From Leucoraja ocellata (taxonomy: Eukaryota), in assembly GCA_036785375.1 (NCBI GenBank), contig JAWMAR010000114.1:744001-808000 (forward strand): DNA of 64,000 nucleotides, in the 5' to 3' direction. The notes beneath the pieces were generated by a model. That model was not told where the DNA came from, did no database searches, and saw only the letters and a program-made list of their open reading frames with translations. Position numbers and translations under genes: made by a program. Below, one piece after another: positions 2,527 to 61,516 of this stretch. Each line of letters begins with the position of its first letter. Within the stretch, counting starts at the first letter, position 1.

Positions 2527-3904
2527 GTTTGCTTGTGCTAGACTGAGCAGGGAGGAGAGCTAGAGGGGGGAATGGAGGGGGGGGTGGGGGGGGGGAGAGA
2601 GGCAAGAGACGAATTGAGGGGGAAAGGAGCTTAGGAAATAGGAATAGTCCGAAGGAACAATGGGAAATGGGATCAGCAACAGGGGTGAATCCAAGAGGGA
2701 AACACAATGGAAGCAGGTGCAGAACAGAATGTGAGGGGAGGAGTAAAAAGAGGATCAAGTCCAGAGGGGAATGTGTGGAACAGATGTAGGGGTTGTCTGA
2801 GAGAGGAAGGCAATCCCAAAAGAAAGAGGGAAATAATCCATTGGGAAACAGATAAGGAAAATTAATTCAAATCGCTCTCAGAAATTCCAGAAAGGCAGTA
2901 TCCTGGAAAGTGGTCGTATTTATACATTTAAAGAGGGGTTTACTTCAAAAAACAATACTTTAGGTTAAAGTATAAAGTCTGAAGAAGGGTTTTGACCAAA
3001 AACATCACCTCTAGTGACGCTGCCTGACCTGCAGAGATACTCCAGCTTTATGTGTCTATTTTCAGTGTAAACCAGCATCTGTAGTTCCTTCTTGTACGAA
3101 AGTAATTTGATGCATGATATGTGGTAAGTGTTGGGATAAAGAGATTAGCAATGGACTCATCTCCAAAGCTTTCCATCACTGTATAGTCCCTTCCTACCAT
3201 CATAGTCATTCAGCCCACCTTGTTCACGCTGACCAACATGCCCCATCTAAGTTTGCCCATTTGGCCGCGTTTGGCACATATCCCTCGAAACCTTTCCTAT
3301 CCATGTATTGTCCAAGTGTCTTTCAAATGTTATTGTACCTGCCTCAACTACCTCCTCTGACAGCTCGTTGCAAGTTGAAACTTTCGGAATAGTTTACTTC
3401 AAGTGAGCTGAGCTGCAAATTATTACACAAATACTCAAATATCTTTCCAAATATACAAACAAACGATTATTAAAAAGAGTTTCCTGGCTACGAACCAATG
3501 ATACAAGAACGTCAATATAGAAAACACGATTCAGGTACTCATACAATATCCTTTGAATAACTGAAATATCTTTCTCTTTGATGTGATAAATAATCTTTGA
3601 ACTATTTGTACAATTTGAAAATGTAGTCAGATAATTTATTTGGCTCTTTTTGCAAATGACCTATTCCGTCTTTGAGAAATGCTGACTCAACGACCGAAAG
3701 CAAGCGAGAGCCACGGTCGGGTCCGCTTCAGTGATTAAAAATGCTACTTTTGAGGTTACTGGATGAGAAACGCGAAGGAAGCGAGACATTGCCAGGCAGC
3801 AGATTAACCCGTTAATGTTCCGTGGGTTTTAGCCGGGCAGATTCGGAAGTTGTCAGTAATACGGTGACTTGTCCTGCCAGCTCCAGCCCACGACCCGTTC
3901 TTAC

Positions 3905-4080
3905 CTCCGACTGCCAATTCTCATTTCTGTCTTGGTGTCTGTGCCGAGGTCGTTCTCCTTTCTGCTGCTCGCTGCCTTGTGGCTGTGCTTCAGTCTCGAA
4001 GCAGATAGTGTGGGGTCCTTCTGCAGAGTCGTAACGGTCCTGTCATGTTCTACTGTCAGGGAATCTGCCCTCCTTCGCAT
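3905..4080 (-). CDS. ABHD12: ABHD12 (lysophosphatidylserine lipase) first coding exon; the rest of the gene lies left of the window
   Basis: ATG at 4080 gives MRRRADSLTVEHDR...SRLKHSH...EMRIGSRR, resembling human ABHD12 N-terminus (MRKRTEPVALEHER...CRLKQ...MKRALGRR). Ends at an AG|GTAAGA donor in phase 2. CpG-rich context and head-to-head position relative to GINS1, as in human. Confidence 0.85.
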
Positions 4081-4520
4081 TACTGGGGAAAACAAGACGC
4101 CGAGAGTCACCTTCTAACTTGGGGGGAGGCGATGAGGGGGATCCAAATAGAATGGCTGAAGGCTGAGAGCCCCGGGGAGGTTTGTGGAAGGACCGGCGAG
4201 GATGGACCGCGCTAATGCAGACGGTGCGGACTTCAGTCAGCCAGTGCTCGGTGTTTCTGGAAGCACCCAGTCTGTTACATTGTTTGCAGCAACTCCCACC
4301 TCTTGAAATCAGCTGATCAGCCGCAACCTCCAACCTTTCACCCGCTTGCAGCGCGCACGCCTCCCACCTTTCCACGGTGCATGTGGCGTCCATCTTTCAG
4401 GCAGGCAGAAGGCCGTCAACTCGTTGACTTTGTAGCATTAACCGTTTCAAATAACTCTGATTTAAGAATGTACAACATCAGCTTGTTTGGTGTGGCAGCA
4501 AGCCGGAAGTTGACTTTCTA
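4081..4520 (-). promoter_or_regulatory. CpG-rich 5' UTR/promoter region of ABHD12
   Basis: Raised CpG density upstream of the ABHD12 ATG; GCGCGCACGC near 4350; ETS-like GCCGGAAGT near 4502. Confidence 0.5.
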
Positions 4521-5610
4521 GTTGGATTTAATAAACGCAGAATGAATTATTCCAGTTTACTTCGCATCGTAGGAGAATCAAATACAACGGGTTTAAGGTA
4601 ACTGACAAAAGAGCCAAGGCGAAGACGAGCTCTATTTTTGACGGCGGTGGGTGGGGTGGAGACAGAGAATCCTCCGGGGGGGGGGGGGGGGGGGGGAGTG
4701 ATGGGAGGTGAAACCGCACTGTCTCATGTTGATAACAAATTCAATGATACATTTTGGAAAAAAAACATAAAAGTGTTTCATGCTGACACGTTATTTGCTG
4801 AATCACGATTAAGCGTTAGATTTTATAATCATCAAGTAGTAACTAATACTATAGTCTGGTGGTTTTATGGATTATTATGTGATTTAACAGAATGAAACAT
4901 TTAATTAGATTTACAGTATTCGCAGGCTTTCGTTCAAATAAACTTGCAATTCAATTAATATTCCAGGAAGTCCCAAAGTACATAGCTAAGTTGCACACAG
5001 AAATACATGTCCATTAACAACAATAAAGTAAATATTTGGAATACTATGTAGAGCTTTGGTCATTCTGCAATAGGAAAGAATAAGATGGAAAGAGTGCAGG
5101 GAAGATATATTAAGATGTTGCGAGAACTTGAGGGCATGAGCTATAGGGATGGTTGGGCAGACTTGTTTTCATCTTTAAACTATTATTGTTTTCTTATATC
5201 CTTTCGAGGGCAGGATGCAAAGTGGTGGTGATTTTATATAGTGGTGTATAAAGTCAAGAGTGTTTTATTGTCATATGTCCCAAAACAAAACAATACAAAT
5301 CTTACTTGCAGCAGCACAACAGTAATGTGAACCATAATTAACAACAAAAAGTTCAGTGTATGTGTGTGTATACTGACTTTTTTGTTGTTAATTATGGTGT
5401 TTACAGAGTACTATGTTTATATTACTGTTGTGTTGTTGCAAGTAAGAATTGTATTGTTTCACTTTGGGACATATGACAATAAAACACTCTTGACTTTACA
5501 CACCTATATAAAATCACCACCACTTTGCATCCTGCGCTTGAAGGGATGTAAGAAAACAATGTCCCCGAGTCTTCGTAGTTCGGAGCTTATTTGGAGGTTG
5601 TATTGTTTAA

Positions 5611-8282: not shown

Positions 8283-9539
8283 TAGATCAAAGGTGACAGT
8301 GCAAAGATTAAATAGGAACCCGAGGGGAAACATTTTCACAGATGGGTATATGGAAATAGCTGGCAGAGGAGATAGTCAAGGTTTACTACATGTAAAAGAC
8401 ACTTGGACAGATATGTGGATAGGAAAGGTTTACAAGGATGTGGGCCAAATGCAAACAAATGTGTCTAGCTTAGATGAGGCATCTTGGTCTACATGAACAA
8501 CTTAGATCAAAGGGCCTGTTTTCAGTTTTATATGACTATAAAATATCAGACCATTTGTTTTATGTCTTGATTAAGGGATAAAGATTGGAAGAACGTCACG
8601 AGAATATCCCTGATCTTTTGTGATCAGTGTCACCAAATCTTTTGCATTAACCTTGTAGCACAGAGCTTCAGCTCCAAGTCTGGACTGAGACCTGAATTTT
8701 TATTTGTTCAAAAAGCTGCACTAACAATCAACACAAACCTGATCACTTTAACCCGTTACCTTGTATTTGTGTGAAATTCAAATTAACCTCTTGTGGCTAT
8801 ATTAAGTCCTCACATGATTCATAATAATGATTATTCACACAATTAAAGCACCATTATTATTAGGATTACAGAGGAACAGTTCAAACAATCTGTTTCTTCC
8901 CAACAGTATCAAACTGACTACATTTAATAAGTGATACTGAAGCAGGGAAGTATTACAATTTTTTTTATAGGAACAGCATTGCTGAAGTCATATTCTGCTT
9001 GGGTAGCTTACAACCCAACGGTATGAACATTGAATTCTCTAATTTTAGGTAACCTCTAACAACCCACCCCCTTCCCTTTCTCCCCATTGCCCTACATGAA
9101 TTTTCACCTATTTCTCCTCTCCCCTTCCACCTGCATTCCTTCCTCTGGCTTCACAATTTGCAACTCTTCAATCGCTTTGTCCCACAACTTCTATATTTCT
9201 ATCTCTGGCCTTTGTCCAACAATTTGTCTATCAAACCCCCCCTTGCCCGTGTTCACCCATTACCACCCACACTTTGTCCTACCCCTTCTCTCACCCAGTG
9301 TTCTCCCCTCCACAATCAGTCTGAAGGGTCCCGACCTGTAATGTCACCTATCCATTTACTCCAGAGATACTGCCTAACCCGCTGAGTTACCCCAGTACTT
9401 TGTATTCTTATCCGCAGTTCCTTGTTTCAACACCTCCGGAGTGACCAGACTGCGTACCAGTTCTCATCAGCTTGAGGAAATATGTAGAGTCTTTAACAAG
9501 TAAACTGACTGCTACATCAACTTATGACGAAATGTATAC

Positions 9540-12956: not shown

Positions 12957-13840
12957 ATACATTTAATAGAAATGCAACAAAAAATTCCTATTTCCCACTT
13001 TGTCAAGTCATTCTGTTCACACCTTTGAACTTAATGTATTCTCATTTATTGCTGCTTCCTGAGGTGGAACTTGACAGTGTGCAACATGTGTCTAGTTTAA
13101 GTTGATCTTAAAACATTCCTCAAGTATCTGATGTTACCTTTGTGACTTAAATGCTATTTAAACCCTCAAACTTGTCTTCATTACCTTACAGTTCTGATCT
13201 ATGGACTGCTTTTATGATACCATTATGTACTTTGGTTTTGCACCACTATGTATTACTTTTATTAATTTATGATATTATTGATTATATGTTATCCTTGTGC
13301 TATTGCTTTAGTATTGTGTAAAACTGGCAAATAAAAGTGTCATTGTTCCGTTGCATATGACAATTAAAAACTTTTGATTGTTGACTAAAACTTGATTCCC
13401 TTGTTAAGTATTTTCCTCAACATATACCATCTACTGAGTTTCAAAATACCTTTTATCTGCTGTAATATGGAGCCCTCGCCAAGTCTAGATCATTGGTACT
13501 AAGGTGGAGATGGTTGAGAGCTTCAAGTTACTTGGTGCAAATATCATCATGAATTTCTTGGTGATTTCATGAAGGAACAAGCAGTTCCTTGTTAATTAAC
13601 CAAGAATTTGTCCTGGTCCAATCACATTCAGGCCAAGAAAGCACACTAACAGAGACGGGGAACTGCAGATGTTAGAAACTTGAGCAAAAAACAAAGTGCT
13701 TGAGGAACTCAGCAGATCAGGCAGCATCTGTGGAGGGAATGGATAGTCACCATTCTTTACCAGTACCTCCACTTACTCAGAAGACTAAAGAAATTCAGCA
13801 TGATTCCAATGACTCCTCCTTCCAATTTTTATAGATGCAT

Positions 13841-16464: not shown

Positions 16465-17270
16465 TTACATAGAAACATAGAAAATAGGTGCAGGAGTAGG
16501 CCATTCGGCCCTTCGAGCCACCGCCATTTGATATGATCATGGCTGATCATCCAACTCAGTATCCCATCCCTGCCTTCTCTCCATACCCCCTGATCCCTTT
16601 AGCCACAAGGGCCACATCTAACTCCCTCTTAAATATAGCCAATGAACTGGCCTCAACTACCTTCTGTGGCAGAGAATTCCACAGATTCACCACTCTCTAT
16701 TTAAAAAATGATTTCCTCATCTCGGTCCTAAAAGTCTTCTCTCTTATCCTTAAACTGTGACCCCTAGTTCTGGACTTCCCCAACATCGGGAATAATCTTC
16801 CTGCATCTAGCCTGTCCAACCCCTTAAGAATTTTGTACGTTTCTATAAGATCCCCCCTCAGTCTTCTGAATTCCAACGAGTACAAGCTGAGTCTATCCAT
16901 TCTTTCCTCATATGAAAGTACTGCCATCCCAGGAATCAGTCTGGTGAACCTTCTCTGTACTCCCTCTATGGCAAGAATGTCTTTCCTCAGATTAGGAGAC
17001 CAAAACTGTACGCAATACTCCAGGTGCGGTCTCACCAAGACCCTGTACAACTGCCGTAGAACCTACAATAAACAAAACTCAAACTCTTACATAGAAACAT
17101 AGAAAACCGAGCCGTTCAGACGAGCCGTCTGAAGAAGGGTTTCGGCCCGAAACGTTGCCTATTTCCTTCGCTCCATAGATGCTGCTGCACCCGCTGAGTT
17201 TCTCCAGCTTTTTTGTGTAACCTGCCGTAGAACCTCCCTGCTCTTATACTCAAATCCTTTTGCTATGAAC
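16465..17270 (-). mobile_element. CR1-type LINE 3' fragment
   Basis: ORF 16697-17050 (RPHLEYCVQFWSP..RRLRGDLIETYKIL); (TTTCTATG)n tail. Confidence 0.9.
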
Positions 17271-17953: not shown

Positions 17954-18028
17954 ATGTTTTGTGAAAAAGTGGTGGAGCTGATCCGGGAGCTGCAGCGCGC
18001 TACGGATGGACAACTGCCTCCATTCAAT
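17954..18028 (+). CDS. GINS1: GINS1 (PSF1) exon 1
   Basis: MFCEKVVELIRELQRATDGQLPPFN, then GTGAGT donor; matches the PSF1 N-terminus. Confidence 0.97.
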
Positions 18029-20422: not shown

Positions 20423-20483
20423 GTAAGTTTATTTAATATTTTCTCCAAGCTTTCACTCTGAAATTATGTGAACCGTTTAAGTA

Positions 20484-45384: not shown

Positions 45385-45886
45385 CTGCAAAATTACAGCA
45401 AGGTTAATCCGCAAAGTAAAAATCCTACTAACCATCCAACCACACAGTGGCGCTGCGGGTAGAGCCGCTGCCTCACGGCACCACAAGCCCAGGTTCAATC
45501 CTGACCTCAGCGCTGTTTGTGCGGAGTTTGCACATTCTCCCTATGATCGCGTTTGGGGATGTGGGAGGACCCGGAGGAAACTCACGCTCTCACAGGGAGA
45601 ACATGCAAACTCCACACAGAGAGAACTCGAGGTCAATGTTTCATCTTTACCCTGACAGGCTGTGGATTCTCAGTCAAAGGGAACCACAAGGCAGATTAAA
45701 GGGACTCTAAGACAATAGTGAGAAAGATAAAGCAGTAATAAACCGGTCACAAGCACAGCTGTAAGGTGCACTTTAGCTGGTGGTGTATGCAGATGCCCTC
45801 TGGCTGGAGAGATTCACTAACACCATCAGTGGTGAGAGGCAGCAACAAAGAAGGTATCTGAAGAAGAGACTCAATGGTTGTCCCAC

Positions 45887-46008
45887 CTTTGTTTCCAGCT
45901 GTCGCCTCAGGTCCTGCACCTCCTGCTGCCACTGCACCCTCTGTTGTTCCATCGCAATCTCCATTTCAATGCTCACGTTGCCACACCATTCTTCTGGCAA
46001 TTCCTTAT
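45887..46008 (-). CDS. NINL: NINL exon
   Basis: (D)KELPEEWCGNVSIEMEIAMEQQRVQWQQEVQDLRRQLETK; resembles human VSIETELMMEQ...QDLRTQLETK. Confidence 0.93.
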
Positions 46009-46199
46009 CTGTTCAGAAAATGGGAATGATCTTCAAATGTTTGTAACCTTAGTTCCCACTTTTCCAGACAATAAGTGGGAATAAAAATTAAACAGAATGT
46101 TGGAAGTGTTCAGCTGGGCCGGAAACACCTGGCCCGCTAAACCTTTTCAGCATTGGAGGGAAAAACGGTTCACATTTCAAATTCACAGTTCAGTTTAGT

Positions 46200-46460
46200 T
46201 ATACAGCATGGAAACAGGCCCTTTGGCCCACTGAGACCATGCTGACCAGCGATCCTGGCACATTAACACTATCCTACACACCAGGGACAATTTACATTTA
46301 TACCAAGCCAATTAACCCACAAACCTGTACGTCTTTGGAATGTGGGAGGAAACCGACGATCTCGGAGAAAACCCATACGGTCACAAGGAGAATATACTAA
46401 CTCCGTACAGACTGCACCCATAGTCGGGATCGAACCCGGGTCTCTGGTGCTACAAGCGCT
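46200..46460 (-). mobile_element. tRNA-derived V-SINE (HE1-like); further copies near 24860, 35580, 39425, 47870, 49020, 53945 and 59430
   Basis: B-box GGTTCGATCCC and V-domain core GGTTTCCTCCCACATTCCAAAGACGT. Confidence 0.8.
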
Positions 46461-46875
46461 GTAGGCATCGGGTTGGAGATGTATAGCAGGGAAACAGACC
46501 ATTTCAATGGGTTCCCAGAGGAAACCCACGCATTCACAGGGAGAACGTGCAAACTCCACGCAGAGGGGACCCGATTTCAGTAGAGCTGAATCCTTGAAGC
46601 AGTGTGCAGCGTACGGACACTACTGTGTTGATTAGTAACGGTGTCAATGGTTACGGGGAGAAGGCAGGAGAATGGGGTTGAGAGGGAAAGATAGATCAGC
46701 CATGATTGAATAGCAGAGTTGACTTAATGGGCCGAATGGCCTAATTCTGTTCCTATGACATAAACTATGGTATGTGTAGGAAAGAACTGCAGACGCTGGT
46801 TTAAATCGAAGGTAGACACAAAATGCTGGAGTAACTCAGCGGGACAGGCAGCATCTCTGGAGACAAGGAATGGGT

Positions 46876-46903
46876 GACGTTTCGGGTCGAGACCCTTCTT
46901 CAG
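46876..46903 (-). ncRNA. Minimal hammerhead-ribozyme-like motif in a Penelope-derived end (best-preserved copy)
   Basis: Minus strand CTGAAGA-A-GGGTC-TC-GACCC-GAAA-CGTC: CUGANGA core, stem II, GAAA, palindromic ACGT and a GUC cleavage triplet. Confidence 0.65.
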
Positions 46904-48149
46904 ACTGATGTTTGGTATCACTGACTACAGTCGCAATATCCAGGCATTAGCCTTTCACTTGATGTTGTGACTTTCAATGCTCAGCGGCAGTTAGTCTTAG
47001 AATAGTTGTACAGCACAGAAACAGGCCCTTCGGCCCACCTTGTCCATGCCGACCAAGTTGGCATACTGGGCTAGGCACACGTCTGCAATTGTCCCATCTC
47101 CCTTCCTGTCCATAAATCTGTCCAAATGTCTTCATGAGCATCGTTTCTGTAAACATATTCACTTCCATGGCTTTCTAGCGGGGAGATATTTAGAGGGGAG
47201 AGATTCATGAGGGACCTCAGGGGTCATTCAGAGGGTAGTCCATATCTGGAATGAGCTGCCAGGTGAAGCGATAGAAGGGGAGTTGCAAAAGACATTTGAC
47301 AGATACATGAATAGGAAGGGTTTAGGGGAATATGGGCCAAATGCAGGAAATGCTAGCTCAGTATGCAAGCCAACTTGATTGGCATGGACAAGGTGGGCAC
47401 TATGATCTTAAGCCCATGTCTTCTAGTTATTGATGGGTAAAAGGCCCTGTGCATTCGCCCTATCTTTTCCCCTCATTATATTATATACCACTAAAGATCA
47501 CTCCTCTTCCTCTTGGGCCCCATGAAATAGTCCTAGCCTGCACAACCTCCCCCGAATGCTCAGGCCCTCGAGTCCTGGCAACATCCTCGTAAATCCTCCC
47601 TGCACTCTTTCCAGCTTAACGACATCCTTCCTATAACAGAATGGCCAAACCTGAACACAACACTTCAAAGGAGGCCTCACCAGTGTCATATACAACTGCG
47701 ACATAACATTGCAACTTCTACACTCAATATCCTGTCTGATGAAACATCTCCCTAACCCATTTTAAACCTTGACTGTCAACACATGAAAGATTGTGCTTTT
47801 GTGTGCAATTTCCCTAATATTATTCTTGAATGTGTTGGGTGAGGGATGTTTGGGACAGCTCTGGAGACCCAGTTCGACCCTGACCCCAGATACTGTCTGT
47901 GTGCAGTTTGCATGTTCTCCCTGTGACCGCGTGGGTTTCCTCTGAGTGTTCCGGTCTCCTCCCACATCCCAAAGACGTGCAGCTCTGTAAATTGCCCGTA
48001 ATGTGTAAGGAGTGAATGAGAAAGTGGGATAACATAGACGTATTGTGAACGGGTGATCGATGGTCGGCATGGACTCGATGGGCATTTCCATGCGGTATCT
48101 TGAAAGTAAACCGATATGTTGGCTCTAGTAGACTGCTTGCATGGTATCA

Positions 48150-48780
48150 TTGACCAAAGGCAAATGAAATGCTAGTATTTATTTCGAGAAGGACTAGAGT
48201 ATAAAAACAGGGATGTAATGCTGAGGACTTATAAATCGCTGGTCAGACCACATTTGGAGTATTGTGGGCATTTTTGGGCCCAATATCTGAGGCAGAATGT
48301 GCTGGCATTGGAGAGGGTCCATAGGAGGTTTACAAAAATGATCCCGGGGATGACTGATGAGTGTTTGATGGCACTGGGCCTGTACTCGTTGGAGTTTAGA
48401 AGGATGAAGTGGGATATTGAAACTGACCGAATAGTGAAAGGACTGGATAGTGAATGTGGAGAGGATGTGTCTACTGGTGAAAGAAACCACTAGGACCAGA
48501 GGCCAAAGCCTCAGAATAAAAGGGCGTACCGTTAGAATGAAGATGTGGAGGAATATCTTTAGTCAGAGGGTGGTGAATCTGTGGAATTCACTGCCACAGA
48601 CATGTGGAGGCCAAGTCATTGGATATTTTTAAAGCAGAAATTGACAGATCCTTGATTAGTAAGGGTGTTGGGGGTTATGTGGAGAAGGCAGGAGAATGGG
48701 ATTGAGAGGGGATAGATCACCCGTGATTGAAGGGCGGGAGTGAGGTCGATGGGCTGAATGGACTGTTCCTATGCCGTCTG
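48150..48780 (+). mobile_element. CR1-type LINE 3' fragment
   Basis: YKSLVRPHLEYC and RVVNLWNSLP motifs. Confidence 0.85.
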
Positions 48781-48796
48781 GCCTGCGTTCACTCAC

Positions 48797-48950
48797 CGGG
48801 ATGCAGGGCGTTGACGCTGAGCCGCTCGGTGCCTGGGCGGAAGCCGGAGCTCCAGCGGTGACCGACTGCCGGTCGCAGCTTCCTGACCTGCAGCTGTGAG
48901 CGCAGCACTTCCACCTCAGACCGCAGCTCGTCGTTCTGGTCACACAACTC
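48797..48950 (-). CDS. NINL: NINL exon
   Basis: ELCDQNDELRSEVEVLRSQL...; resembles human DLQDRNDELQAELE; CAG/GTGAGT; phase 0-1. Confidence 0.92.
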
Positions 48951-51439
48951 CTGCGGAGGTGAAGGCAACAACCTCAGAGCAACGAACGCACAGTATACCA
49001 CATCCATCCAGTGTTTAGTTTGGTTTAGAAATACAGCATGAAAACAGGCCCTTCGTCCCACCAACTCCATGCCGACCATCAATCACCGTTCACACTGGTT
49101 TTAATTTATCCCACTTTCACACTACACACTAGGGGCAATGTGCAGAGGGCCAATTAACCAACAAACCTGCACATCTTTAAGAGGAACTGGAGCACCTGGA
49201 GGAAACCCACGCGATCATAGGGAGAACGTGCAAACTCCACATGGACAGCACCCAAGGTCAGGATCAAACTTGGGTCTCACGCTGTGAGACAGCAGCTCTA
49301 CCCGCTGTGTTACTGTGTCGCTAGGCAAACGGGAGAGGTTCAGGCTTATTGTTGTCACGTGTACTGGGGTACAGTGAACAGCTTTGTTTTTGCATGCTAT
49401 CCTATCTGATCAGGTAATACTATACATAAATACAATCAGTTCAAACTCAAGTACCATAGGAAATGCAAAGGGGAAGATACAGAGTGCAGAAAATAGTTCT
49501 CAGCATTGTAACACACCAGTTCCATTTAAGTCCAATGTATACAATGGGGTAGAGGTGAATCGGGCAGTACCCTAGCTTATGGAAGGACCGTTAAGAAGTC
49601 TGATAACAGAAGGGAAGAAGCTGTTACTGAGTCTGATGGCACGCTCTTTCAATCTTCTGTACTTTTTGCTGGACGGGAGCAGGGAGAAGAAGGAATAACC
49701 GGGGTGGGACAATTCATTGATAATGTTGGTTGCTTTCCCAAGGCAGCGTGAAGTGTAGATGGAGTCAATGGTGGGGAATCTGGTCTGTGTGATGAACTGG
49801 GCTACGTCTACAATGGTGGGGAATCTGGCCTGTGTGATGAACTGCGCTACATCTACAACTCTGCAATTTTTTTGCGGTCTCGGTTAGAGCTGTTCCCAAA
49901 TCAAGCTGTGATGCAGCCCGACAGTATGCTTTCGACGGTGTATTTGTAAAGGTTTGTAAGAGTCGCTAGAGACAAGCTGAATTTCCTCAGTCTCCTCACG
50001 ATGGTGTGCCTCTTGGCTGTCATTTCAAAGTGGTTAGTCCTTGAGAGAATGAAGTAACTCCCGCATCAACTGCTTGAAAGAAAAGCACCAACAGAAGCGA
50101 CTGGGGATCCATTTTGCACACGGTGTTTGTATTAGAGTCAAGCTCCAAGAGTGTTTAATTGTCACATGTACCGGCAAGGGAACAATGTGATTCTTCCTTT
50201 CTACAGCTTTCCTACCAACAACTAGACACCAGCTCTGAGCTACCGGAGACCCTGGGACAATCTTTAATCGGACTTTACCTTGAACTAAATGATATTCACG
50301 TTATTCCCTTTATCCTGTATACGTACACTGTGGATGGCTCGATTGTAATCATGTCTTGTTTTTCCATTGACTGGATAGCACGCAACAAAAGCTTGCACTG
50401 TACACATGACAATAATCTAACTAAAATAAACACAATAACACACAGATCAATACATAATAATCAATAAATGATAAATGAATGACCATAATTCTGTGTAACC
50501 ATAATGGTGCAAAGACTGAAGTCCATACATAGTGCAACAAAAAACTAGAGGATTTGAGCATGTGGCTGGGGATGTGAGTGGCCTGCCTGTTTAGAACTGG
50601 GTGACCACTGGTGTTTGTGCAGCAATGCAGAGTCCCACGTCCTGCCCCATCTCCATCCACTCGGCCCACACACACTTTGTGTGTATTTTTCATTTCTTTG
50701 CAAGAATGGGGTTAACGAAGGAGACTGCAGAGAGTGGTGGACACTGCCCGGCCCATCACGGGTACTGCCCTCCCCTCCCCTCCCATCTAAGGGATCTACA
50801 GGAGGTGCTGCACGCACACCACCCTGGCCACGCTCTCATCTCGCTGCTAACATCAGGAAGGTGGTACAGGAGCCTGAAAACCGTGACGTCCAGGTTCAAG
50901 AGCAGCTTCTTCCCAGCAAACATCAGGCTCTTGAACATCCTCTGCGGACTGTGTCTTTGGTTGCACTACGGACTTTATAATTATCTTGTGTTACAGTTAT
51001 TCGTTTTTTTATTACAAATGTATCTGTATGTAATTGCATTTACAGGCCTGTTAAGCTGCAGCATTTCAAGACAAGGTGGCGGCACAAATAGAAACAGGAG
51101 CTCATGTGCACAATTTGAGATGAAAACGAGGGTACAATCTCACTCACAATAATAAATGATGATTTGTGGTCAGCTCACCTTCACCCTCTGGCGAGTCCAA
51201 AGGAAGGCGTTAGAATGGAGAGAGAGAGAGAGTGGATAAAGTCAGTGCAAGGTTGTTGCTGTGTTAGTCCTTGCACCACACAGACAGGAGGCAGGAGACG
51301 TTGGAGCACACATGACAACAATAAGTTCATACATTCTAGGAACAGAATTAGGCCATTCAGCCCATCGTGTCTACTCTGCCATTCAATCATGCTGATCTAT
51401 TTTTCCCTCTAAACCCCATTCTCCTGCCTTCTCCCCATG

Positions 51440-52965
51440 GTATCAGTTGGAAGATACTAGCATGGATAGCTGGAAGACTGGATGGCAGAAGGCAGAGTGC
51501 CAATTCTGGGGGCTTTTTTGGGTTGGCTGCCGGTGACCAGCGGCATTCTGCAGGGATCAGCGCTGGGGCCGATACTCTTCACGGTGTATATTAATGATTT
51601 GAATGAGGGAATTGAAGTTTGCCGATGATACGAAGATGGGTGGGAGGGCAGGTAGTGTGGTGGAAGCGGAGACTCTGCAGAAGGACTTGGACAGGTTAGG
51701 ACAGTGGGCAGAGAAATGGCAGGAGGAATACAGCATAGCAAAGTGTGGAGTCATGCATTTTAGTAGTAGGAATAAAGACATAGACTACTTTCTAAATGGG
51801 GAGGAAATTCAGAAATCGGAAGCACAAAGAGGCTGGTGCTCCCAAAAAGTTAACTTGCAAGTTGGATCAGTAGTTAGGAAGGCAAATGCAATGCGAGCAT
51901 TTATTTTGAGAGGGCTACAAGACAAAAACAGGGATGTAATGCTGAGGCATTATACGGCACTGGTCAGGTCACATTTGGAGTATTGTGAGCTTTTATGATT
52001 GGGTTAACATTTGATGAGCGTTTGAAGGCTGTACTCACTGGAGTTTAGTAGGAAGAGGGGGTCTTCTTGAAATGTACCGAATAGCAAAAGGCTGAGACAG
52101 TGTGAATGTGAAGAGGATGCTTCCACTACTGGGAGAGCCTAGGACTAGAGATCATAGCCTCAGAATAAAAGGATGTACCTTTCGAAATATGAAAAGTAAT
52201 TTCTTTAGTGAGAGGGTGGTGAATCTGTGGAATTAATTGCCAGACAGTGGTGTAGCCCAAGTCACTGGGTATTTTTACGGCGAGATTGACAGTTTCTTGA
52301 TTAGTAAAGGTGTCAGGGGTTATGGGGAGAAGACAGGAGAATGGAGTTGAGAGGGAAAGATAGATCAGCCGTGGAAGGTTGCTTCTCAGACTGGAGGCCT
52401 GACTAGAGGTGTGTCTCAGGGTTCGGTGCTGGGCCCGTTACTGTTTGTCATCTACATCAATGATTTGGATGAGAACATACAGATTAGCAAGTTTGCTGAT
52501 GATACAAAAGTTAGTGGTTTTGCAGACAGTGAAGATGGTTGTCAACGATTGCAGCAGGATCTGGATCAATTGGCCAGGTGGGCGGAGGAATGGGTGATGG
52601 AATTTAATACAGAAAAGTGTGAGGTGTTGGATTTTGGGACGTGGAACAAGGGCAGGACCTACACAGTAAATGGTAGGCCTCTTGGTAGTGTTGTAGAGCA
52701 GAGGGATCTAGGAGTACAAGTGCATTTTTCCTTGAAGGTCGAGTCGCAGGTAGATAAGGTGGTAAAAAAAGGCTTTTGGCACTCTGGTCTTCATCAGTCA
52801 GAGTATTGAGTATAAAGGTTGGGAGGTCATGTTGCAGTTGTATAAGACATTAGTGAGAACATATTTAGAATATTATGTTCAGTTCTGGGCACCATGTTAT
52901 AGGAAAGATATTGTCAAACTTGAAAGGGTTCAGAAAAGATTTACGAAGATGTTGCCAGGACTAGT
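51440..52965 (+). mobile_element. Two adjacent decayed CR1-type LINE RT fragments
   Basis: KFADDTK...LQKDLDRL (51603-51998) and [23 protein letters not shown] (52411-52809). Confidence 0.85.
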
Positions 52966-53680
52966 GGGCGAGTTGGGCCTGTTTCCACACTGTATCACTC
53001 TATGACTATGATTGAATGGCAGGGTAGATGGGCCAAATGGCCTAATTCTGCTCCCAGAACTTATGACACCCTTACTATTTACCACAACTTCCTAGCTCAG
53101 GAATAAACAATCTGGATACCGCTTTAACAGAGAAACATCACTTATCCATGTTCTCCAGAAATGCTGCCTGACGAGCTGCATTACTCCAGCACTTTGTGTC
53201 TTTCTTTGTAGACCAGCATCTACAGCTCCCAGTTTCTGCTTCTTAAAAGAGGTTTGTTGTCATAACACACGGGCCCTTTGGCCCACTTGCTCATGCTGAG
53301 CAAGATGCCCCATCTACGCTAGTCCCACCCGACCATGTTTGGCACATATCCCTCTAAACCATTATTATCCATGTACCTGTCCAAGTATCTATTAAATGTT
53401 GTTATTGTGCCTTCCTCAACTAATTCCTCTGGCTGATCTATCTTTCCCTTTCAACCCCATTCACCTGCCTTCTCCCCATAACCCTTGACAACCTCACCAA
53501 TCAAGAATCTGGTAATGTCAGCTTTAAAAATATCCAATGGCTTAGCCTCCACAGCCGTCTGTGGCAATGAATTCCACAGATGCACCACCCTCTGACAAAA
53601 TAAATTCCTCCTTGTCTGCATTCGAAGCTCCTCGCCTCCCCCCTTGACATGGCTCCCGGGCCCCGGACATGACCACCTAC

Positions 53681-53770
53681 CCTGCATTTCTGCTCGTACG
53701 CCAGGATAATCTCGGCGAATCGATCCTCTTGCCCAAAGAGCTCGATGTGTGAATTATCCACCACTCCGAG
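53681..53770 (-). CDS. NINL: NINL exon
   Basis: LGVVDNSHIELFGQEDRFAEIILAYEQKCR; resembles human [21 protein letters not shown]. Confidence 0.93.
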
Positions 53771-54769
53771 CTGCACGTGTGGGATGCATGGGAGATGGGG
53801 AGAGAGAGGCACATGTTAGACAGATTACAACATCACTTGGTTTCATGGTCATCGAGCTGTACAACATAAATGGTACAAGTGAGATGAGACAGTGGCCAGG
53901 ATGGTGTGGGCCTTTGATGATACTGGCTGAATTTTGTTTAGCTTAGTTTTAGAGATACAGCATGGAACCAGCCCCTTCTGCCCACAGAGACCACACCGAC
54001 CATCAATCATCCGTTCATACCAGTTCTATGTTATCTCACTTTCCTTACACACCAGGAGTAAATTACAGAGGCCGATTAAGCCACAAATCCGCAGGTCTTT
54101 GGAGTGTGGAAGGAAACTGGAGCACCCGGAGAACACCCATGCAGTCACAGGAAGAACGTAGAGGTTTACGTTGTGGGGTTGACGGCACTGGGCCTGTACT
54201 CGCTGGAGTTTAGAAGGATGAGGGGGAACCTCATTGAAACTTACCAAATAGTGAAATGAGTGAACTTGCAAAATAGTGAAACTTACCAAAGAGTGGATGT
54301 GGAGAGGATGTTTCCACTAGTGGGAGGGTCTCAGACCAGAGGTCAAAGAACGTATCTTTAGAAAGGTGATGAGGAGGTATTTCTATAGTCAGAGGGTGGT
54401 GAATTTGTGGAATTCATTGCCAGAGAAGGCTATGGAGGCCAAGTCAACGGATATTTTAAAGCTGGAGATTCTTAATTGGTACGGGTGTCAGGAGTTATGG
54501 AGAGCAGGCAGGAGAATGGGGTTGAGAGGGAAAGATAGCCATGATTGAATGGTGGAGTAGACATGGTTGGTTGAATGGCCTAATTCTGCTCCTACAACTT
54601 ATGAACATGTATAAAAAGGCCAGGTGAAGCGAAGCAGCATATTGGGAACAGTTGTGTGGGAGAGAGGCTACGGTAACAACATTTCAAAGACATTTGGACA
54701 GGTATGGATAGGAAAGGTTTAGAGGGATATCGGCCAAATGTGGACAGTTTGGGCTGAAGGGCCTGTTCC

Positions 54770-55290
54770 ACGCTACGTGCCTCTATCCCCCCCCAACAGA
54801 GGAAGGTGCCTGCCTCTCCCCCCCCCACCCCAAGGCTGGACAAGGAGGGAGCGGTCCCCAGTGGAGGTCTCTCTACAAGGGAGTCCTCCCCCTTTACATC
54901 GGGGACCTGGGGTGGAGAGTGTTGCACAAAGCCGTGGCTTGTAATAGATACTTGAGCCGGTTCACGGACTCTTCCCCAGCTTGTCATTTCTGCGGTGAGG
55001 AAGAGACCGTGTTCCACGTGTCCATAGAGTGTGAGAGGTTGCAGCCACTGTTCGAGTATCCAAAGGGGCTGCTCCTCAAGTTTTAGTCCAACACTATTAA
55101 TTTATGGGCACCCGGTACCGAGGGAGGAGGGTCGGGAGGGAGGAGGGGGTCTCCCTGTCGGTCTGCTCCTGGGCCTGGCCAAGATGGCCATTACACGGGT
55201 CCAGGCAGCGGGCAGGCGATGGCCGCACAGCGGTCGGCTGCCTGCCCCTTTTCCGGGTTTACGTCCGTGCCCGCGTGTCCCTAGAGAGGG
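54770..55290 (+). mobile_element. L1/Tx1-like LINE C-terminal fragment
   Basis: Translates to CHFCGEEETVFHVSIECERLQPLF, a CCHC zinc-knuckle pattern, followed by LLLGLAKMAI. Confidence 0.7.
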
Positions 55291-55322
55291 AACAAGGAGA
55301 TGGACAAGGAGATGGTGCTTAC

Positions 55323-55433
55323 TTTATCTTTAAGCATGTAGTCGAGGTCGGTCTGTAACCTGGCAATCAGTCTCTCAGATTCCGCCAACTTCTCCACCGC
55401 TTCCATCAACTCTGTCTGCAGCCGCCTGTTCTC
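55323..55433 (-). CDS. NINL: NINL exon
   Basis: ENRRLQTELMEAVEKLAESERLIARLQTDLDYMLKDK; resembles human [22 protein letters not shown]...FVLKDK. Confidence 0.95.
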
Positions 55434-56254
55434 CTGGTGAAGGGGAAAACTGTCATCAAACAGCCAGAGTAAACCAGGGCTCTAGCTCCAACCTCTCACC
55501 ACCAAAGCAACAGCCTGTGGGTTATTATTGTCACCTGCGCCAAGATACAGTGAGAAGCTTTTGTTTGTGTGCCATCCGCACTTCCCAGTTGTTATCAAGC
55601 AACTGAACCATCCTGTCACCCACTAAAGAGCAGTCTTGACCTCCCATCAACTTCATTGGAGACTCTCGGACTATCTTTAATAGGACTTTACTGGACTTTA
55701 CCTTGCACCAACCGTTATTCCCTTCATCCTGTATCTGTACACTGTGGACGGCTCAATTGTAATCATGTATAGTCATGTATATGCTAACCGGTTCTGCTGA
55801 CTGGTTAGCACGCAACAAAAGTTTTTCACTGTACCTAGGTACCTTCACTATGCCAAACTAAGTCCATACAATAGCGATGGGATAACAACCAATGAGATTA
55901 GTTTAGTTTATGTTATTATTGTCACGTGTATCAAGGTACAGTGAGAAGCTTTTTGTTGCATGCTATCCAGTCAGCGGAAAGACTATGCATGATTACAATC
56001 AAACCGTCCAATGTACAAATACAGGATAAAGGGAATAACGTTTAGTTCAAGGAGTCCAGTAAAGTCGATTAAAGATAGTCCGAGGTCAATGAGGTAGACA
56101 GGAGGTTAGGACTACTCTCCAACTGTTAGGAGGATAACACAGTTGCCTGTTAACAGCTAGGAAGATATTGTCTCTGAATCTGGAGGTGTGCGTTTTCACC
56201 CTTCTGTACCTCTTGCCCAATGGGAGCGGACAGAAGAGGCCGGGGTGAGGAGGA

Positions 56255-57527
56255 GAATTTTCATCCTGCACTCAAATTTACTTGGACCATCTGCGACACC
56301 TCCCTCCCCTTTCTTGATCTCACAGTCCCCATCACAGGAAATAGACTATTGACTGACGTCTATTACAAACCCACTGACTTTCACAACTATCTCGACTACA
56401 CTTCTTCCCAACGTGCTTCCTGCAAAGACTATCCCCTACTCCCAATTCCTCTGTCTACGCCGCATCTGCACCCAAGATGAGGTGTTCCATACTAGAACAT
56501 GCAAGATGTCCTCATTCTTTAGGGAACGGGGTTCCCCTCTCCCATCATAGATGCGGCCCTCACTCGTGTTTCCTCGGTACCCTGCAGCTCTGCCCTTGCT
56601 CCCCCTACCCCTAGTTGCAACAGAGACAGAATCCCCCTAGTCCTTACCTTCCGCCCCATCAGCCGTCGCATACAACACATAATCCTCTGAAATTTCCGCC
56701 ACCTCCAACGGGATCCCACCACTAGCCACATTTTCCCATTTTCACCCCTTTCCACCTTTCGCAGAGACTGTTCCATCCAAAACTCCCTGGTTAACTCTTC
56801 CCTTCCCACCCAAATCAACCCCTCCCCAGGTACCTTACCTGCAACCGCAGAGGTTGCAACACCTGTCGCTATACCTCCTCCCTCGACTGTCCAGGGACCC
56901 CCAACAGTCCTTTCAGACAGTCCTTTCAGGTTAGGCAGAGGTTCACTTGCACCTCCTCCAACCTCATCTACTGTAACCATTGTTCAAGATGTAGACTCTT
57001 GTACATCGGCGAGACCAAATGCAGACTGGGCGATCGTTTCGTGGAACACCGTCACTCAGCCCGCCTGAACCAACCAGATCTCTCAGTTGCTGGACACTTT
57101 CATTCTCCTTCCCATTCTAACACAGACCTTTCTGTCCTCGGTCTCCACCATTGTCAGAGTGAAGCTAAACACGAATTGGAGGAACAGCATCTCATATTTT
57201 GCTTGGGCTGCTAAACAGCCCAGTGGTATAAGTTTTGATTTCTCTCACCTGGTAGCCCCGGCATTCCCTCTCTCTCCCTAGCCCTCCCCCACCCAAGTCG
57301 CAATGGCTTCTCATTTTCACCCAACAAACAGCTTACAATGGCCTGTTTCCTTTATGCAAGTCTTTCATTCATTGTTCTTTATCTCTCCACATCACTGTCT
57401 ATATCTCTCGTTTCCCTTATCCCTAACCAGTTTGAAGAAGGGTCTCGACCCGAGGAGTCACCCTTTCCTTCTCTCCAGAGATGCTGCCTGTCCTGCTGAG
57501 TTACTCCTTTTTGTGTCTATCTTTGGT
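56255..57527 (+). mobile_element. Penelope-like element (RT thumb, GIY-YIG endonuclease and 3' terminal repeat)
   Basis: LPFLDL..VYYKPTDFHNYLDY; LYIGETKCRLGDRFVEH; degenerate hammerhead-like motif near 57431; splits an antisense L2 fragment. Confidence 0.9.
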
Positions 57528-58521
57528 CTGAGTCCAGGGTGAGACCGGTCCTTAATTATGCTGGCGACTTTGCCGAGGCAACGTGAGGTATAGATGGAGT
57601 GAATGGAAGGGAGGTTGGTTTGAGTGATGGTCTGGGCTGCATTCACAATTCTCTGCAACTTCTTGCAGCCTTGGAGGGAGCTGTTCCCAAACCAGGCTGT
57701 GATGCATCCTGAACAAAATGCTTTCTACGGCGCATCTGTCAAAGTTGGTGAGGGTTGTTGGGGGAATGGTGATCTTCCTAGAACCTTCTAAGGACATAGA
57801 GGCATTGGTGTGCTGGACATCTGGTTTCTGAACGATCCTTCCATAAGCTAGGGAACTATCCGATTCACCTCTACGCCATTGTGGACATTGGAATTTAGTT
57901 ATTCAGCGTGGAAACAGGACTTTCGGCCCAACTTTCCCACACCGACCAACATGCCCCATCTACATTAGTCCCACCTGCCAGCGTTGGTCCCATATCCCTC
58001 TGAACCTATCTTATCCATGTACCCGTCTAAATGTTTCTTCAACGTTCTGATAGTACCTGCCTCAACTACCTCCTCCAGCAGCTCCTTCCATACACCCACC
58101 ACCCTTTCAGTAAAAAAAGTTACCCCTCAGGTTCCTATTAAATCGTTACCCTCTCACCTTAAACCTATGTCCTCTGGTTCACGAGTCCCCTACTCTGGAC
58201 AAGAGACTTTTGCCCTCATGACTTTATGCACCTCTGTAAGGTTCCCCCTCAACTTCCTGCGCTCCAAGGAAAAAAGTCCTAGTCTGTTCAAACTCTCCCT
58301 ATAGCTCAGGCCCTTGAGTCCTGACAACGTGCTGTGTCTCCGGAACTGATGCGCTACAATGCTGAGAACTATATTCTGCACTCTGCTCTTCCTATTGTAC
58401 ATGAGCTTGGCTTGATTGTATTTGTGTATGGTATATCACATCTGATGGGATGGCAGCAGAGGAGTGTTTTTCCCTGTACCTGGGTACCGGTGACAGTCAT
58501 AAACCAGATTGTGAACCTTAC

Positions 58522-58696
58522 CTTCATGGTCAGGGTGAGCTTCTCGCGGGAGGACGTTTCCTCCGACCGGACAGACTCAAGCTCCTGTTCCAGCTCCTTC
58601 TGCTGCTGGGTCACCTGCTGAACTATCAGCTCCTGAGCCTCGTCCATCTGGTCTCTGAACGCCACCATCTTCTCCCTGTAGCCTTGGTCCAGGTGC
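58522..58696 (-). CDS. NINL: NINL exon
   Basis: HLDQGYREKMVAFR...REKLTLTMK; resembles human HLEQGYRERL...REKLTLALK. Confidence 0.95.
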
Positions 58697-59228
58697 CTGG
58701 GTGGGCAAGGGTTGGGGGGGGGGGGGGAAGGGATGACGTTGGGGGAAAGAGCAGGAGAAAAACATGGGATGGGGGGGGAAACTTATTAACAATGGCGGAC
58801 ACAAGGAACAGCAGATGCTGGAACCTTGAGCCAAATACAAAGTGCTATGCCTGGTCTCAGGAAGGTCTCATTGGGAACATGGAATGTACATCGGCGAGAC
58901 CAAGCATAGACTCGGCGACTGTTTCACCGAACACTAACGCTCGTTCCACCAAGGCCTGCTGGATCTCACGACTGCCAACCTTGTTACCTCCCCCATCCCC
59001 TTCCCTCAATGACCTTTCTGTCCTGGGCCTCCTCCATTGCCAGAGTGAATCCATATGAAAACTGGAGGAACAGCGTCTCATATTCTGCTTGGGTAGCGCA
59101 CAACCCAACGGTATGAACATTGAATTTTCCAATTTCAAGTAATATCCCTCCACCCCCCCCCAACCGATCAAGATCCTGTCCCAGAAACTGGACAAAAAAC
59201 TTGAAGTGGTTCCACATGTGCGACTGAC

Positions 59229-59369
59229 CTGATCTTGGTGTCGTTGAGCAGCTCCATGGCAGCCTGTCGATCGTCAACCTCCTTACCCAGCTGTGCGTTG
59301 CGTTTCTCCGCTCGCTCCAAGTCCACTCGCAGTTTATCCCTCTCACTCTGCACCTGCTGGACTTGCCAC
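59229..59369 (-). CDS. NINL: NINL exon
   Basis: WQVQQVQSERDKLRVDLERAEKRNAQL...LNDTKI(R); resembles human ERDKARQDLERAEKRN. Confidence 0.95.
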
Positions 59370-61516
59370 CTGTAGAAACCATCCGTGTGATCTATCAGTC
59401 TGGGTGGCTCACTACCTGATGGTATGTGCAGTTAACAGCACGGGAACAGGCCCTTCGACCCACCGAATCCACACTGACCATCGATCACTTGCTCACACTA
59501 GCTCCATGTTATCCCACTCTCTCATCCGCTCTCTACACACCAGGGGCAATTAACCTGCAAACCCGCACGTCTTTGGAGTGTGGGAGGAAACTGAAACACC
59601 CGGTGGAAACCCACGCGATCACAAGGAGAACGTGCAAACTCCACATGGTCAGCACCCGAGGTCAGGATCGAACCTGGGTCTCTGGCCCTGTGAGGCAGCA
59701 GTTCTACCCGCTAAATATTAAACTCTCCAATTTCAAGTAATACTCCCTCACCCCCTCTCTTTCCTCTGCCCCCAACCCTGTGCGTGCACATTTATCCCAC
59801 CATCTTCCACCCTCCAGTCACCCTGCTCCTTCCCCTCCTCCGTACACTCATCTCCCAAATTGGAGGCCCACAATTCTCTTTTATTGCCCCCTCTTTCCCC
59901 TCCCTCTGCCTTTACATTTCACTCCTCCCCCTCTCTCCTTACCCGACACCCTTTTATCCCCCGCAAGAACGTGGATTATAAAGGCCAGACTAGCTGTTCC
60001 GTGCACTACCCGCTGCCCGTTGATTTACCCCAGCCTAAGGGCTCCGTTGCGTTGGTCAATATGTCCGCTGAATCTACGGCCAATAAAACTCGGCAATGTC
60101 TCAATCTGCCCAGGAGTTGGAGGAGGTCCACCATGTCATGGAGTCAAAAAGCGCGGAGACAGTCCCTCCGGCCTAACTTTCCCACTCCGACCAACATGCC
60201 CCATCTACACTAGCCCCACTTGCCCATATCCCTCTAAACCTATCCTATCCATGAACCTGTCTAAATGTTTCTTCAACAATTCTCCAACAACTCTCACCAA
60301 CCTCTGCAGAAGCTGTATTTAACTTTTCCATGGACCTTGGCAAACCATTCCACTCCTGGTCACTATTTGGTTTTCCATCTATTATTGTATCATCACTAAA
60401 TTTTTGCAAACAGTAAAGTTCAATCCAAGTCTCACCACAATAGTTATAGAGTCAGAGTCACACAGCATGGAAACGTAGAACAGTACAGCACAGGAACAGT
60501 CCCTGCAGCCCGCAATGTCTGTGCCAAACATGATGCCAAATTCAACTAATCTCCTCTTCCTGCACATAATCCATATCCCTCCATTCCCTGCATGTCCATG
60601 TGTCTATCCAAAAGCCTCTTAAACGCCACTATCGTACCTGCCTCCACCACCACCACCCCTTGCAACATGTTCTCGACACTCATCATCACCCTCTGTGTAA
60701 AATAATTTGCCCCCACACATCTCCTTTAAACTTTCCCCCCTCTCACCTTAAAGCTATGTACTCCAGTCTTTGACATTTCTACCCTGGGAGAAAGGTTCTG
60801 ACTGTTTCCCCCATCTCTGCCTCTCAAATTTATAAACATGCACTTTGACCCAATTCCGCCAAGATGCCCCATCTATTCCAGTCTTATTTGACTGCATTTG
60901 GCCCGTATCCCTCTGGATTTTCCAGTCAGTCTGAAGAAGGGACTCAACGCACAATGTTGTCTGTCTATCCCCTCTACAGATGAGGCCTGACCCACTGAGT
61001 TCCTCCAGCACTTTGTACTTTTCTCCCTCTAATCCTTTCCCATCCATGTACTCGATGTAGGTTGCCAATCTGAAAATGACTTCTACCCAGAGTAGGGGAA
61101 TCAAGAACCATGGAACATTGGTTTAAGGTGAAGGGGGGGGGAGGAGATTTAATAGGAACCTGATGTGCAACATTTTCACACAGAAGTGGGTGGTTGGTAT
61201 ATGGAACAAACTGCCAGAGGAGTTAGCTAAGGCAGGGACTGTAACAGCATTTAAAAATAATTTGGATAGGTACATGGATAGGAAAGGTTTGGAGAGAAAT
61301 GGGCGAAAGGCAGGCAGGTGGGACTAGTGTAGATCTTGGTCGGCATGGGCAAGTTGGGCCGAAAAGCCTGTTTTTCCATGCTGTATGGCTCTGTGACTCC
61401 CTGAGGTTTTATTTTTGCCAATCCCACTCCATGAACCTCTATCCCATTGCCATCAGCTACCTTGCATAACAGCCTAAACATCCATTAGATTGCACGTGTC
61501 GAGAGGAGGTGCTTAC

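What the first reader, a model, noticed from the sequence alone, without database searches (positions are those of the whole stretch)
2979..60960. About a dozen minimal hammerhead-ribozyme-like motifs spread by Penelope-derived termini
Seen: the module (AGT)CTGAAGA-A-GGGTC-TC-GACCC-GAAA-CGTC-ACC recurs. Core-intact copies are at 17129(+), 36215(+) and 46876-46903(-). Near-intact or degenerate copies are at about 2979, 9321, 18416, 25870(-), 29240(-), 33009, 41704, 43701, 57431 and 60931. At 57431 it caps a Penelope RT/GIY-YIG element. Known: Penelope-like elements carry minimal type I hammerheads with a palindromic stem III that are thought to act as dimers, and an extra A after A9 occurs in some natural hammerheads. 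Inferred: a non-autonomous, ribozyme-bearing retroposon family has colonised these introns. Copies sense to a host transcript (46876 in NINL, 18416 in GINS1) could cleave pre-mRNA if two copies pair. Stem I is only 2-3 bp, so activity is uncertain.
Basis: partly seen in the sequence, partly recalled or inferred. Interest (0 to 1): 0.75.

Follow-up and report, generated by a model that had tools for sequence, protein, structure and literature searches.

The report
Skate Penelope stubs bearing minimal hammerheads
The repeated motif is real and is the known stripped-down hammerhead RNA of Penelope-type jumping genes, carried here by short, mostly decayed stubs that fill this skate genome; they were likely copied from uncut, capped RNA of the complete element and likely do not cut the host genes' transcripts.

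Summary
Observation confirmed. All 13 named places carry the module; a profile finds 22 copies, 3 with an intact core (17129, 36215, 46903). It is the minimal type I hammerhead of Penelope-like element (PLE) pseudo-LTRs, matching the 2014 consensus, extra base after A9 included. The genome (a skate) holds intact, young 3,946-bp tandem elements with a 1,233-aa RT/GIY-YIG frame; copy 17127 is 99% identical to their end. So the copies are stubs of autonomous families, not a shown non-autonomous family. 95 of 109 well-kept short copies start at the motif's 5' edge and none at the cut site, often after an untemplated G, which points to a capped transcript start and an uncut template. Host pre-mRNA cleavage finds no support: 229 sense to 245 antisense copies in 1 Mb of introns (intact 14:14), no close intact pairs, no covariation in inserted copies, hammerhead fold disfavoured, no read ends at the cut in a relative's RNA. 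Catalysis was not tested. This scan has reported the same kind of stub before, in this genome and in shark genomes. New member of a known kind.

The parts
2976..3095 (+). Decayed pLTR stub with tail; core broken
9316..9425 (+). Decayed pLTR copy, 3-base loss in core, pyrimidine-rich sequence upstream
13682..13754 (-). Old pLTR fragment lacking the 5' core
17127..17223 (+). Stub of the young autonomous family, intact core, starts 2 bases before C3; about 825 bases upstream of the GINS1 start codon
   Evidence: 99% over 97 bases to the intact unit; descriptor pass
18053..18134 (-). pLTR fragment from mid stem II onward, GINS1 intron 1, antisense
18264..18322 (+). Weak pLTR fragment without core
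18415..18511 (+). Stub in GINS1 intron 1, sense; stem III palindrome broken; 9-base target duplication
23344..23405 (-). Old pLTR fragment without core
25765..25897 (-). Stub with tail; core damaged (CAGAGA)
26325..26713 (-). GIY-YIG remnant joined to the 3' half of a pLTR with tail
27048..28331 (-). PLE reverse-transcriptase remnant, frameshifted
   Evidence: 74.8% DNA identity to the intact unit; tblastn E 8e-128
29199..29353 (.). Head-to-head inverted pair of decayed stubs (29199-29266 minus, 29272-29353 plus)
32347..32494 (.). Second decayed head-to-head pair (32347-32434 minus, short plus arm at 32478)
33008..33130 (+). Decayed stub with tail, antisense in NINL
36210..36312 (+). Stub with intact core and 12-base target duplication, antisense in NINL
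39309..39377 (-). Old pLTR fragment
41703..41830 (+). Stub with tail; A9 changed to G
43696..43793 (+). pLTR copy; stem II mismatched
46770..46908 (-). Stub with intact core and tail, sense in a NINL intron; nearest same-strand copy 7.5 kb away and coreless
53131..53230 (+). pLTR fragment from GAAA onward, with tail
56256..57525 (+). 5'-truncated PLE: RT thumb, Cys linker, GIY-YIG (to 57208), then pLTR with a broken hammerhead at 57432
58884..59136 (+). GIY-YIG remnant without pLTR
60926..61024 (+). Old decayed stub
17954..29778 (+). Host gene GINS1 (PSF1), seven coding exons
   Evidence: exon 5 matches PDB PSF1 at E 3e-19
31750..64000 (-). Host gene NINL, continuing beyond the window

Best explanation
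These are solo end-stubs of several successive autonomous Penelope-like retroelement families of a skate, each carrying the family's minimal hammerhead motif; they were likely made when the element's reverse transcriptase started about 70-105 bases behind the motif on an uncut, likely capped transcript and ran off its 5' end three bases before the core, and once inserted they decay and are likely inert. Shown: the autonomous element, its identity with the stubs, the fixed ends, target-site duplications, neutral-looking decay, no intron strand bias. Inferred: the transcription start at the A of TCAGT, the cap origin of the extra G, the two reverse-transcription starts, and that the motif has a role only in the element's own tandem RNA, as a weak dimer ribozyme that would need the element's protein, as reported for the anole element.
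For: Intact 3,946-bp tandem units, 97-100% alike, with a 1,233-aa frame (Pfam RVT_1 E 1.4e-6, weak GIY-YIG E 0.012) and the motif 117 bases after the stop, in 15 of 16 loci chosen for long frames. Exact genome counts: 16,420, 21,888 and 80,553 for three words. 5' ends: 95 of 109 well-kept short copies in profile columns 1-6, 0 in columns 31-35 where the cut lies; all short copies 226 and 12 of 381. Target duplications of 8+ bases in 49 of 138 against 3.6% in swapped controls. Optional 35-base tail in 132 of 459; 3 of 750 run on into the ORF, as the PLE tail and internal RT start predict (PMC11167929). G before the boundary in 20 of 49, p 0.006; by hand, 19 of 30 non-C cases among the first 100 of 275 head-to-tail junctions, 7 of the 19 after ATT, the preferred cut of the anole enzyme. 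No shared upstream leader in 121 copies. Introns: 229:245 for all, 14:14 for intact, 0 of 28 intact with an intact same-strand neighbour within 1 kb. Only 28 of 283 full-length motifs intact; G12 changed in 102, the stem III CG in 170. Closing pair of stem II has probability 0.05 or less once 40+ bases are folded. No pile of read ends at the cut in four RNA runs of a relative.
Against: No transcript start was mapped; the G excess is indirect and partly a hand count. The profile begins 4 bases before the core, so some copies classed short reach further upstream (one search shows a few). The intron test holds only 28 intact copies in three paralogous genes (95% interval for the sense share 0.31-0.69), and control repeats showed no bias there either, so it may be insensitive. 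About 18 of the first 100 head-to-tail junctions join at or next to the cut site, a mild excess that three-base microhomology explains for about half but that cleaved 3' ends would also give; 2 of 29 young copies begin exactly at the cut. Core columns were slightly better kept than base-matched flank columns in 354 copies (odds 0.77, p 0.003), though not in the 90 copies free of edge selection (0.81, p 0.34). The RNA runs are from another species and cannot show 5'-OH ends well.
Confidence: 0.8

Rival explanations
1. A non-autonomous, SINE-like family: stubs keep the start site and internal promoter, are transcribed and are re-copied by the PLE protein.
For: Short and inverted stubs are 405 of 456 intronic copies and have fixed ends and target duplications; PLE pLTRs hold internal promoters (PMC2377424 passages); module RNA is abundant in a relative.
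Against: Stubs occur in every subfamily beside copies that run into the upstream pLTR; they end at the presumed RT starts, whereas the anole enzyme needs about 55 bases beyond them (PMC11167929); 3 of 750 reach the ORF. Shared 3' flanks were not searched for.
Confidence: 0.15
2. Intact sense copies cut host pre-mRNA as dimers, in cis or in trans with the PLE protein's help, and so affect genes such as NINL.
For: At least 38,000 exact intact cores from two words; PLE hammerheads cleave weakly as dimers or with protein (PMC4209133, PMC11167929); mild junction excess at the cut.
Against: No strand bias, no close intact pairs; 16 of 28 intact copies have an inverted partner within 300 bases that would pair with them; fold disfavoured; the GINS1 copy is broken; 46903 has no partner; no read ends at the cut.
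Confidence: 0.07
3. The motif is a vestige even in the active element, kept for promoter or protein-binding sequence and not for catalysis.
For: Stem I is 2 bp with a closing U-G in the young family; an older, decayed family has one more base on each side and 3-5 bp; the start site sits against the core; new tandem arrays keep internal motifs uncut; Naiad PLEs thrive without hammerheads (PMC8557442 passages).
Against: The five subfamily changes within the motif all keep the structure; 2-bp stem I occurs in published PLE motifs (Culex, Drosophila, Oikopleura). This rival is compatible with the best explanation for the inserted copies.
Confidence: 0.3
4. The 5' pile-up marks an RT stop or fold-back at the TCAG-T-CTGA palindrome, or a splice acceptor, not a transcription start.
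For: The palindrome is the pivot of many inverted pairs; a pyrimidine tract plus CAG precedes the core, and the D. virilis intron ends at this spot (PMC4209133).
Against: An untemplated G before AGT is not expected from a stop; no shared leader in 121 copies; no splice joint to this site among the 15 joints shown (135 were not shown).
Confidence: 0.2

Closest known systems
Minimal type I hammerheads (min-HHR) in pLTRs of metazoan Penelope-like elements (Cervera and De la Pena 2014, PMC4209133)
   Same: CUGANGA, one extra base, G10.1-C11.1, GAAA, palindromic CG, UH, short stem I; location in the pLTR; mostly solo or opposite-strand copies. Fugu, cichlid, Xenopus and lamprey entries of Fig. S3 have the same CUGAAGA-N...GAAACGUC frame.
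   Different: No cartilaginous fish among the species read in Fig. S3; stem II only 4-5 bp with a 2-4 base loop; stem I 2 bp; copy number far above the 4,000-9,000 reported for coelacanth and Xenopus; solo copies have a fixed 5' end and are not random truncations.
PAc, Poseidon element of Anolis carolinensis (Frangieh et al. 2024, PMC11167929)
   Same: Tandem units, optional 30-40-base tail, hammerhead not needed on the template, no RNA-seq ends at the cut, ATT at insertion points.
   Different: The skate protein has a Cys linker of Neptune/Nematis type and a long proline-rich N-terminal part; its first ATG lies 136 bases after the cut, not inside stem II; no biochemistry exists for it.
Neptune/Nematis-type EN+ PLEs (Craig et al. 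2021, PMC8557442)
   Same: RT, CX4CX2C linker, C-terminal GIY-YIG; partial tandems, inverted 5' pLTR, tail.
   Different: Clade not tested with a tree; the frame (1,221 aa from the first Met) is longer than the roughly 830-aa rotifer frames of PMC3846280.
Non-LTR retrozymes (bioRxiv 10.64898/2026.07.22.740005; PMC7229834 seen as listing only)
   Same: pLTR-derived, non-coding, type I hammerhead; reported in one chondrichthyan.
   Different: Defined by tandem arrays with a complete motif in each unit; the window's copies are dispersed monomers or inverted pairs.

Membership tests
PLE minimal hammerhead (min-HHR) | Core CUGANGA...GAAA...UH with one extra base between A9 and G10.1 | tested here: met
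   3 window copies and the intact elements pass the descriptor; consensus read
PLE minimal hammerhead (min-HHR) | Stem II closed by G10.1-C11.1 | tested here: met
PLE minimal hammerhead (min-HHR) | Palindromic 15.2-16.2 with no stable stem III | tested here: met
   ACGU in intact copies
PLE minimal hammerhead (min-HHR) | Short stem I | tested here: met
   2 bp in 64 of 87 descriptor hits; at the low end of the published range
PLE minimal hammerhead (min-HHR) | Lies in the pLTR of an RT/GIY-YIG element | tested here: met
PLE minimal hammerhead (min-HHR) | Covariation in stems | tested here: inconclusive
   None among inserted copies; five one-sided compatible changes between subfamilies; an older family with an extra stem I pair rests on few decayed copies
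PLE minimal hammerhead (min-HHR) | Self-cleavage as a dimer or with protein | not testable with these tools
   Indirect only: no read ends at the cut, fold disfavoured
EN+ Penelope-like element | One ORF with RT and C-terminal GIY-YIG, flanked by pLTRs in partial tandem | tested here: met
EN+ Penelope-like element | Inverted 5' pLTR, optional 30-40-base tail, target duplication | tested here: met
Neptune clade | CX2-5CxxC linker between RT and EN | tested here: met
   CGRSRCNTC in the frame printed; the motif is shared with Nematis
Neptune clade | RT tree placement | not tested
Non-LTR retrozyme | Tandem units each with a complete hammerhead | tested here: not met
   0 of 28 intact intronic copies with an intact same-strand neighbour within 1 kb; 275 close head-to-tail junctions genome-wide
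Non-autonomous SINE-like family | Self-propagating short master distinct from the autonomous element | tested here: inconclusive
   Stubs match autonomous ends and occur in every subfamily; shared 3' flanks not searched

The most novel reading that the evidence does not exclude
Skates carry on the order of a hundred thousand intact solo hammerheads. Where the element's protein is made, it binds stub-bearing host RNAs, unfolds the blocking hairpin and pairs two cores in trans, so that the transposon's protein switches on cleavage of host pre-mRNAs genome-wide.
Probability: 0.06. Interest if true: 0.75.

Novelty: new member of a known kind. Interest (0 to 1): 0.25.

Why it matters
As a ribozyme it is ordinary: a published class in a lineage not yet listed. 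The useful point is mechanistic. Stubs that run from the tail to a fixed, likely capped 5' end would be the genomic footprint of the internal reverse-transcription start shown in vitro for the anole element. They would explain why solo minimal hammerheads far outnumber full elements, and show that the copied RNA is usually uncut, against the idea that cleavage sets the element's ends. The young, intact family gives ready material for a cleavage test with and without its protein.

Tried and rejected
Rfam scan: no hammerhead family hit at E<=5. Pfam on decayed window PLE fragments: no hit in 5 of 5; the intact frame was used. Run search: no RNA holder listed for window 44900-47100, which is no evidence on expression; raw RNA runs of a related species were laid. 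Strand excess of about 80-87% in the two single-cell runs was set aside: read convention and priming on A-rich tracts are not resolved, and the two bulk runs are unstranded. The first core-versus-flank test (4.9% vs 7.9%) was rejected as confounded by base make-up and by selecting copies aligned to the 5' edge; redone. The older-family pattern (8 matches, 5 distinct) has stem I built in, so only L131 and L139 are independent of it. A cross-species comparison of the motif was not obtained. Lunse et al. 2017 is not held and is known only from a review passage. A cleavage site giving the 5' boundary (permuted or trans hammerhead at AUC or GUC upstream) was considered by hand and rejected for lack of stem III and stem I pairing. 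In the window alone, intronic copies are 12 antisense to 6 sense (hand count), not significant and not borne out.
Full report
Observation. Every coordinate given carries the module, and no shuffle of the window gives a match. A profile built from natural copies finds 22 hits in the window. The motif is the front end of a 95-140-base repeat. Rfam holds no model that scores it. The host genes are GINS1 on the plus strand (exon 5 matches solved PSF1 at E 3e-19) and NINL on the minus strand (best named homologue 84% identical, from a skate; exons mapped). 46903 is sense in NINL and 18416 sense in GINS1 intron 1, as claimed, but 18416 has lost the stem III palindrome and 57432 has a broken core.

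What it is. A window RT remnant finds many long open frames in the genome. [quoted passage not shown] The motif lies 117 bases after the stop codon, in the pseudo-LTR, in 15 of the 16. Window 17127-17223 is 99% identical to it. Exact counts are 21,888 for the young motif, 16,420 for the older one and 80,553 for the 29 bases after the young cut site. In 1 Mb of introns there are 474 copies; if typical, over a million in the assembly, which contains duplicated stretches that inflate counts (identical hit pairs). Copies fall into about seven subfamilies. Setting aside CpG-type changes in two small groups, these differ within the motif at five columns: two stem II bases and one stem I base that become G-U pairs, one loop base, and H17. 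All keep the structure; by a hand estimate over transitions that has a chance near 0.01. There is no two-sided change. A rarer, decayed family has one more base on each side of stem I, so the abundant families likely lost a pair.

How the copies arise. Of 456 intronic copies, 239 are short, 166 have an inverted copy within 60 bases upstream and 51 extend into the upstream pLTR. Among well-kept short copies 95 of 109 begin within the first six profile columns, at or just before the core, and none at the cut; among all short copies the numbers are 226 and 12 of 381. Target duplications of 8 or more bases flank 49 of 138, against 3.6% in swapped controls. The 3' end stops before or after an optional tail of about 35 bases (132 of 459 have it), and 3 of 750 run into the ORF. 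That is the tail that Frangieh et al. tie to two internal RT starts. The sequence at the 5' edge is TCAGT, an initiator-like word (consensus recalled). The base before the boundary is G more often than expected (20 of 49, p 0.006). In head-to-tail junctions it is G in 19 of the 30 rows where it is not the templated C (hand count, first 100 of 275), and 7 of the 19 follow ATT, the preferred cut of the anole endonuclease. Copying of the cap as an extra G is known for other retroelements (recalled). I infer that RT starts at the first tail of a capped, uncut transcript and runs off its 5' end, leaving a stub; starts at a later tail give the longer copies. No separate non-autonomous family is needed, though it is not excluded.

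Is it active in host RNA? Three CUB-domain genes of CSMD type (name inferred; exon motifs confirm orientation in two of the three regions) gave 229 sense and 245 antisense copies; intact cores 14 and 14; broken 132 and 130. None of 28 intact copies has an intact same-strand neighbour within 1 kb, and 16 have an inverted partner within 300 bases. Only 28 of 283 full-length motifs are intact, largely through three CpG sites. Paired columns show no more pairing than independence predicts, stem II is less conserved than the flank, and the core's small advantage disappears in copies free of edge selection. Folding puts the purine run of the core against the pyrimidine run after the cut; stem II's closing pair has probability 0.05 or less once 40 or more bases are included. 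In four RNA runs of a related species, 15,502-23,075 reads per run lay on the pLTR with no place where many begin or end, and depth does not fall at the cut. Against this reading: the intact sample is small (sense share 0.31-0.69), control repeats show no bias in these introns either, about 18 of 100 close junctions join at or beside the cut (about half explicable by microhomology), and 2 of 29 young copies start at the cut.

Comparison with what is known. Cervera and De la Pena 2014 (PMC4209133; read parts 1-2 of 4 and parts 1-2 of 3 of the supplement's extracted text) define this motif, with the extra base, palindrome and short stem I, report thousands of solo and opposite-strand copies per genome and low dimer activity. 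No cartilaginous fish is among the Fig. S3 names I read. Frangieh et al. 2024 (PMC11167929; parts 1-2 of 4) found the anole motif cleaves only with the element's protein and is not needed for insertion. Li et al. 2026 (bioRxiv; parts 1-3 of 5, supplements closed, which may list this family) report tandem retrozymes in one chondrichthyan and cleavage in 1 of 9 Xenopus dimers. PMC8557442, PMC3846280, PMC2377424, PMC6765202 and PMC6155905 were seen as passages. Searches returned no paper on skate or shark PLE hammerheads or on cap-derived G in PLE stubs; subscription papers, Lunse et al. 2017 and repeat databases were not seen. Earlier notes of this scan describe the same stubs and 5' edge in this and other genomes; I had reached that reading before the look-up and do not count them as support.

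Verdict. A real, very abundant, known kind of motif in a lineage not yet listed. Interest 0.25.

Noticed in passing
G000:C73:7728092-7728210: An array with a 31-base period made of the hammerhead unit alone (at least four junctions, each at the cut site); a second short array at C72:1104581-1104680. 275 close head-to-tail junctions genome-wide are the best candidates for cis dimers.
   Followed up: partly
L063:4619-8284: The autonomous frame has a long proline-rich, low-complexity stretch (about residues 170-500) before the RT, making it 1,221 aa from the first Met.
   Followed up: no
window 17127-17223 and 46770-46908: The four bases after the cut resemble the 3' strand of stem II and can pair with its 5' strand, and both changed A to G in the young family; a hairpin further down pairs with the tail. 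Possibly an off-switch and the RT start structure.
   Followed up: partly
L088 and L123: A copy in which the start of the ORF is joined directly to the first base after the hammerhead cut site; the two loci are near-duplicates.
   Followed up: no
L131, L139, L151-L158: Old decayed family with one more base on each side of stem I (3-5 bp).
   Followed up: partly
window 33934-34836: A much more diverged PLE remnant (31% amino-acid identity to the intact frame), with no hammerhead seen downstream.
   Followed up: partly
G000: Many hits come as identical or near-identical pairs on different contigs or within a contig, suggesting retained haplotypes or duplications in the assembly.
   Followed up: no
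window 984-2342, 6846-7469, 10006-12431: LINE-type RT (Pfam RVT_1), Tc1-type transposase (Pfam HTH_Tnp_Tc3_2) and decayed LTR-retrotransposon-like pol pieces (the last judged by eye).
   Followed up: no
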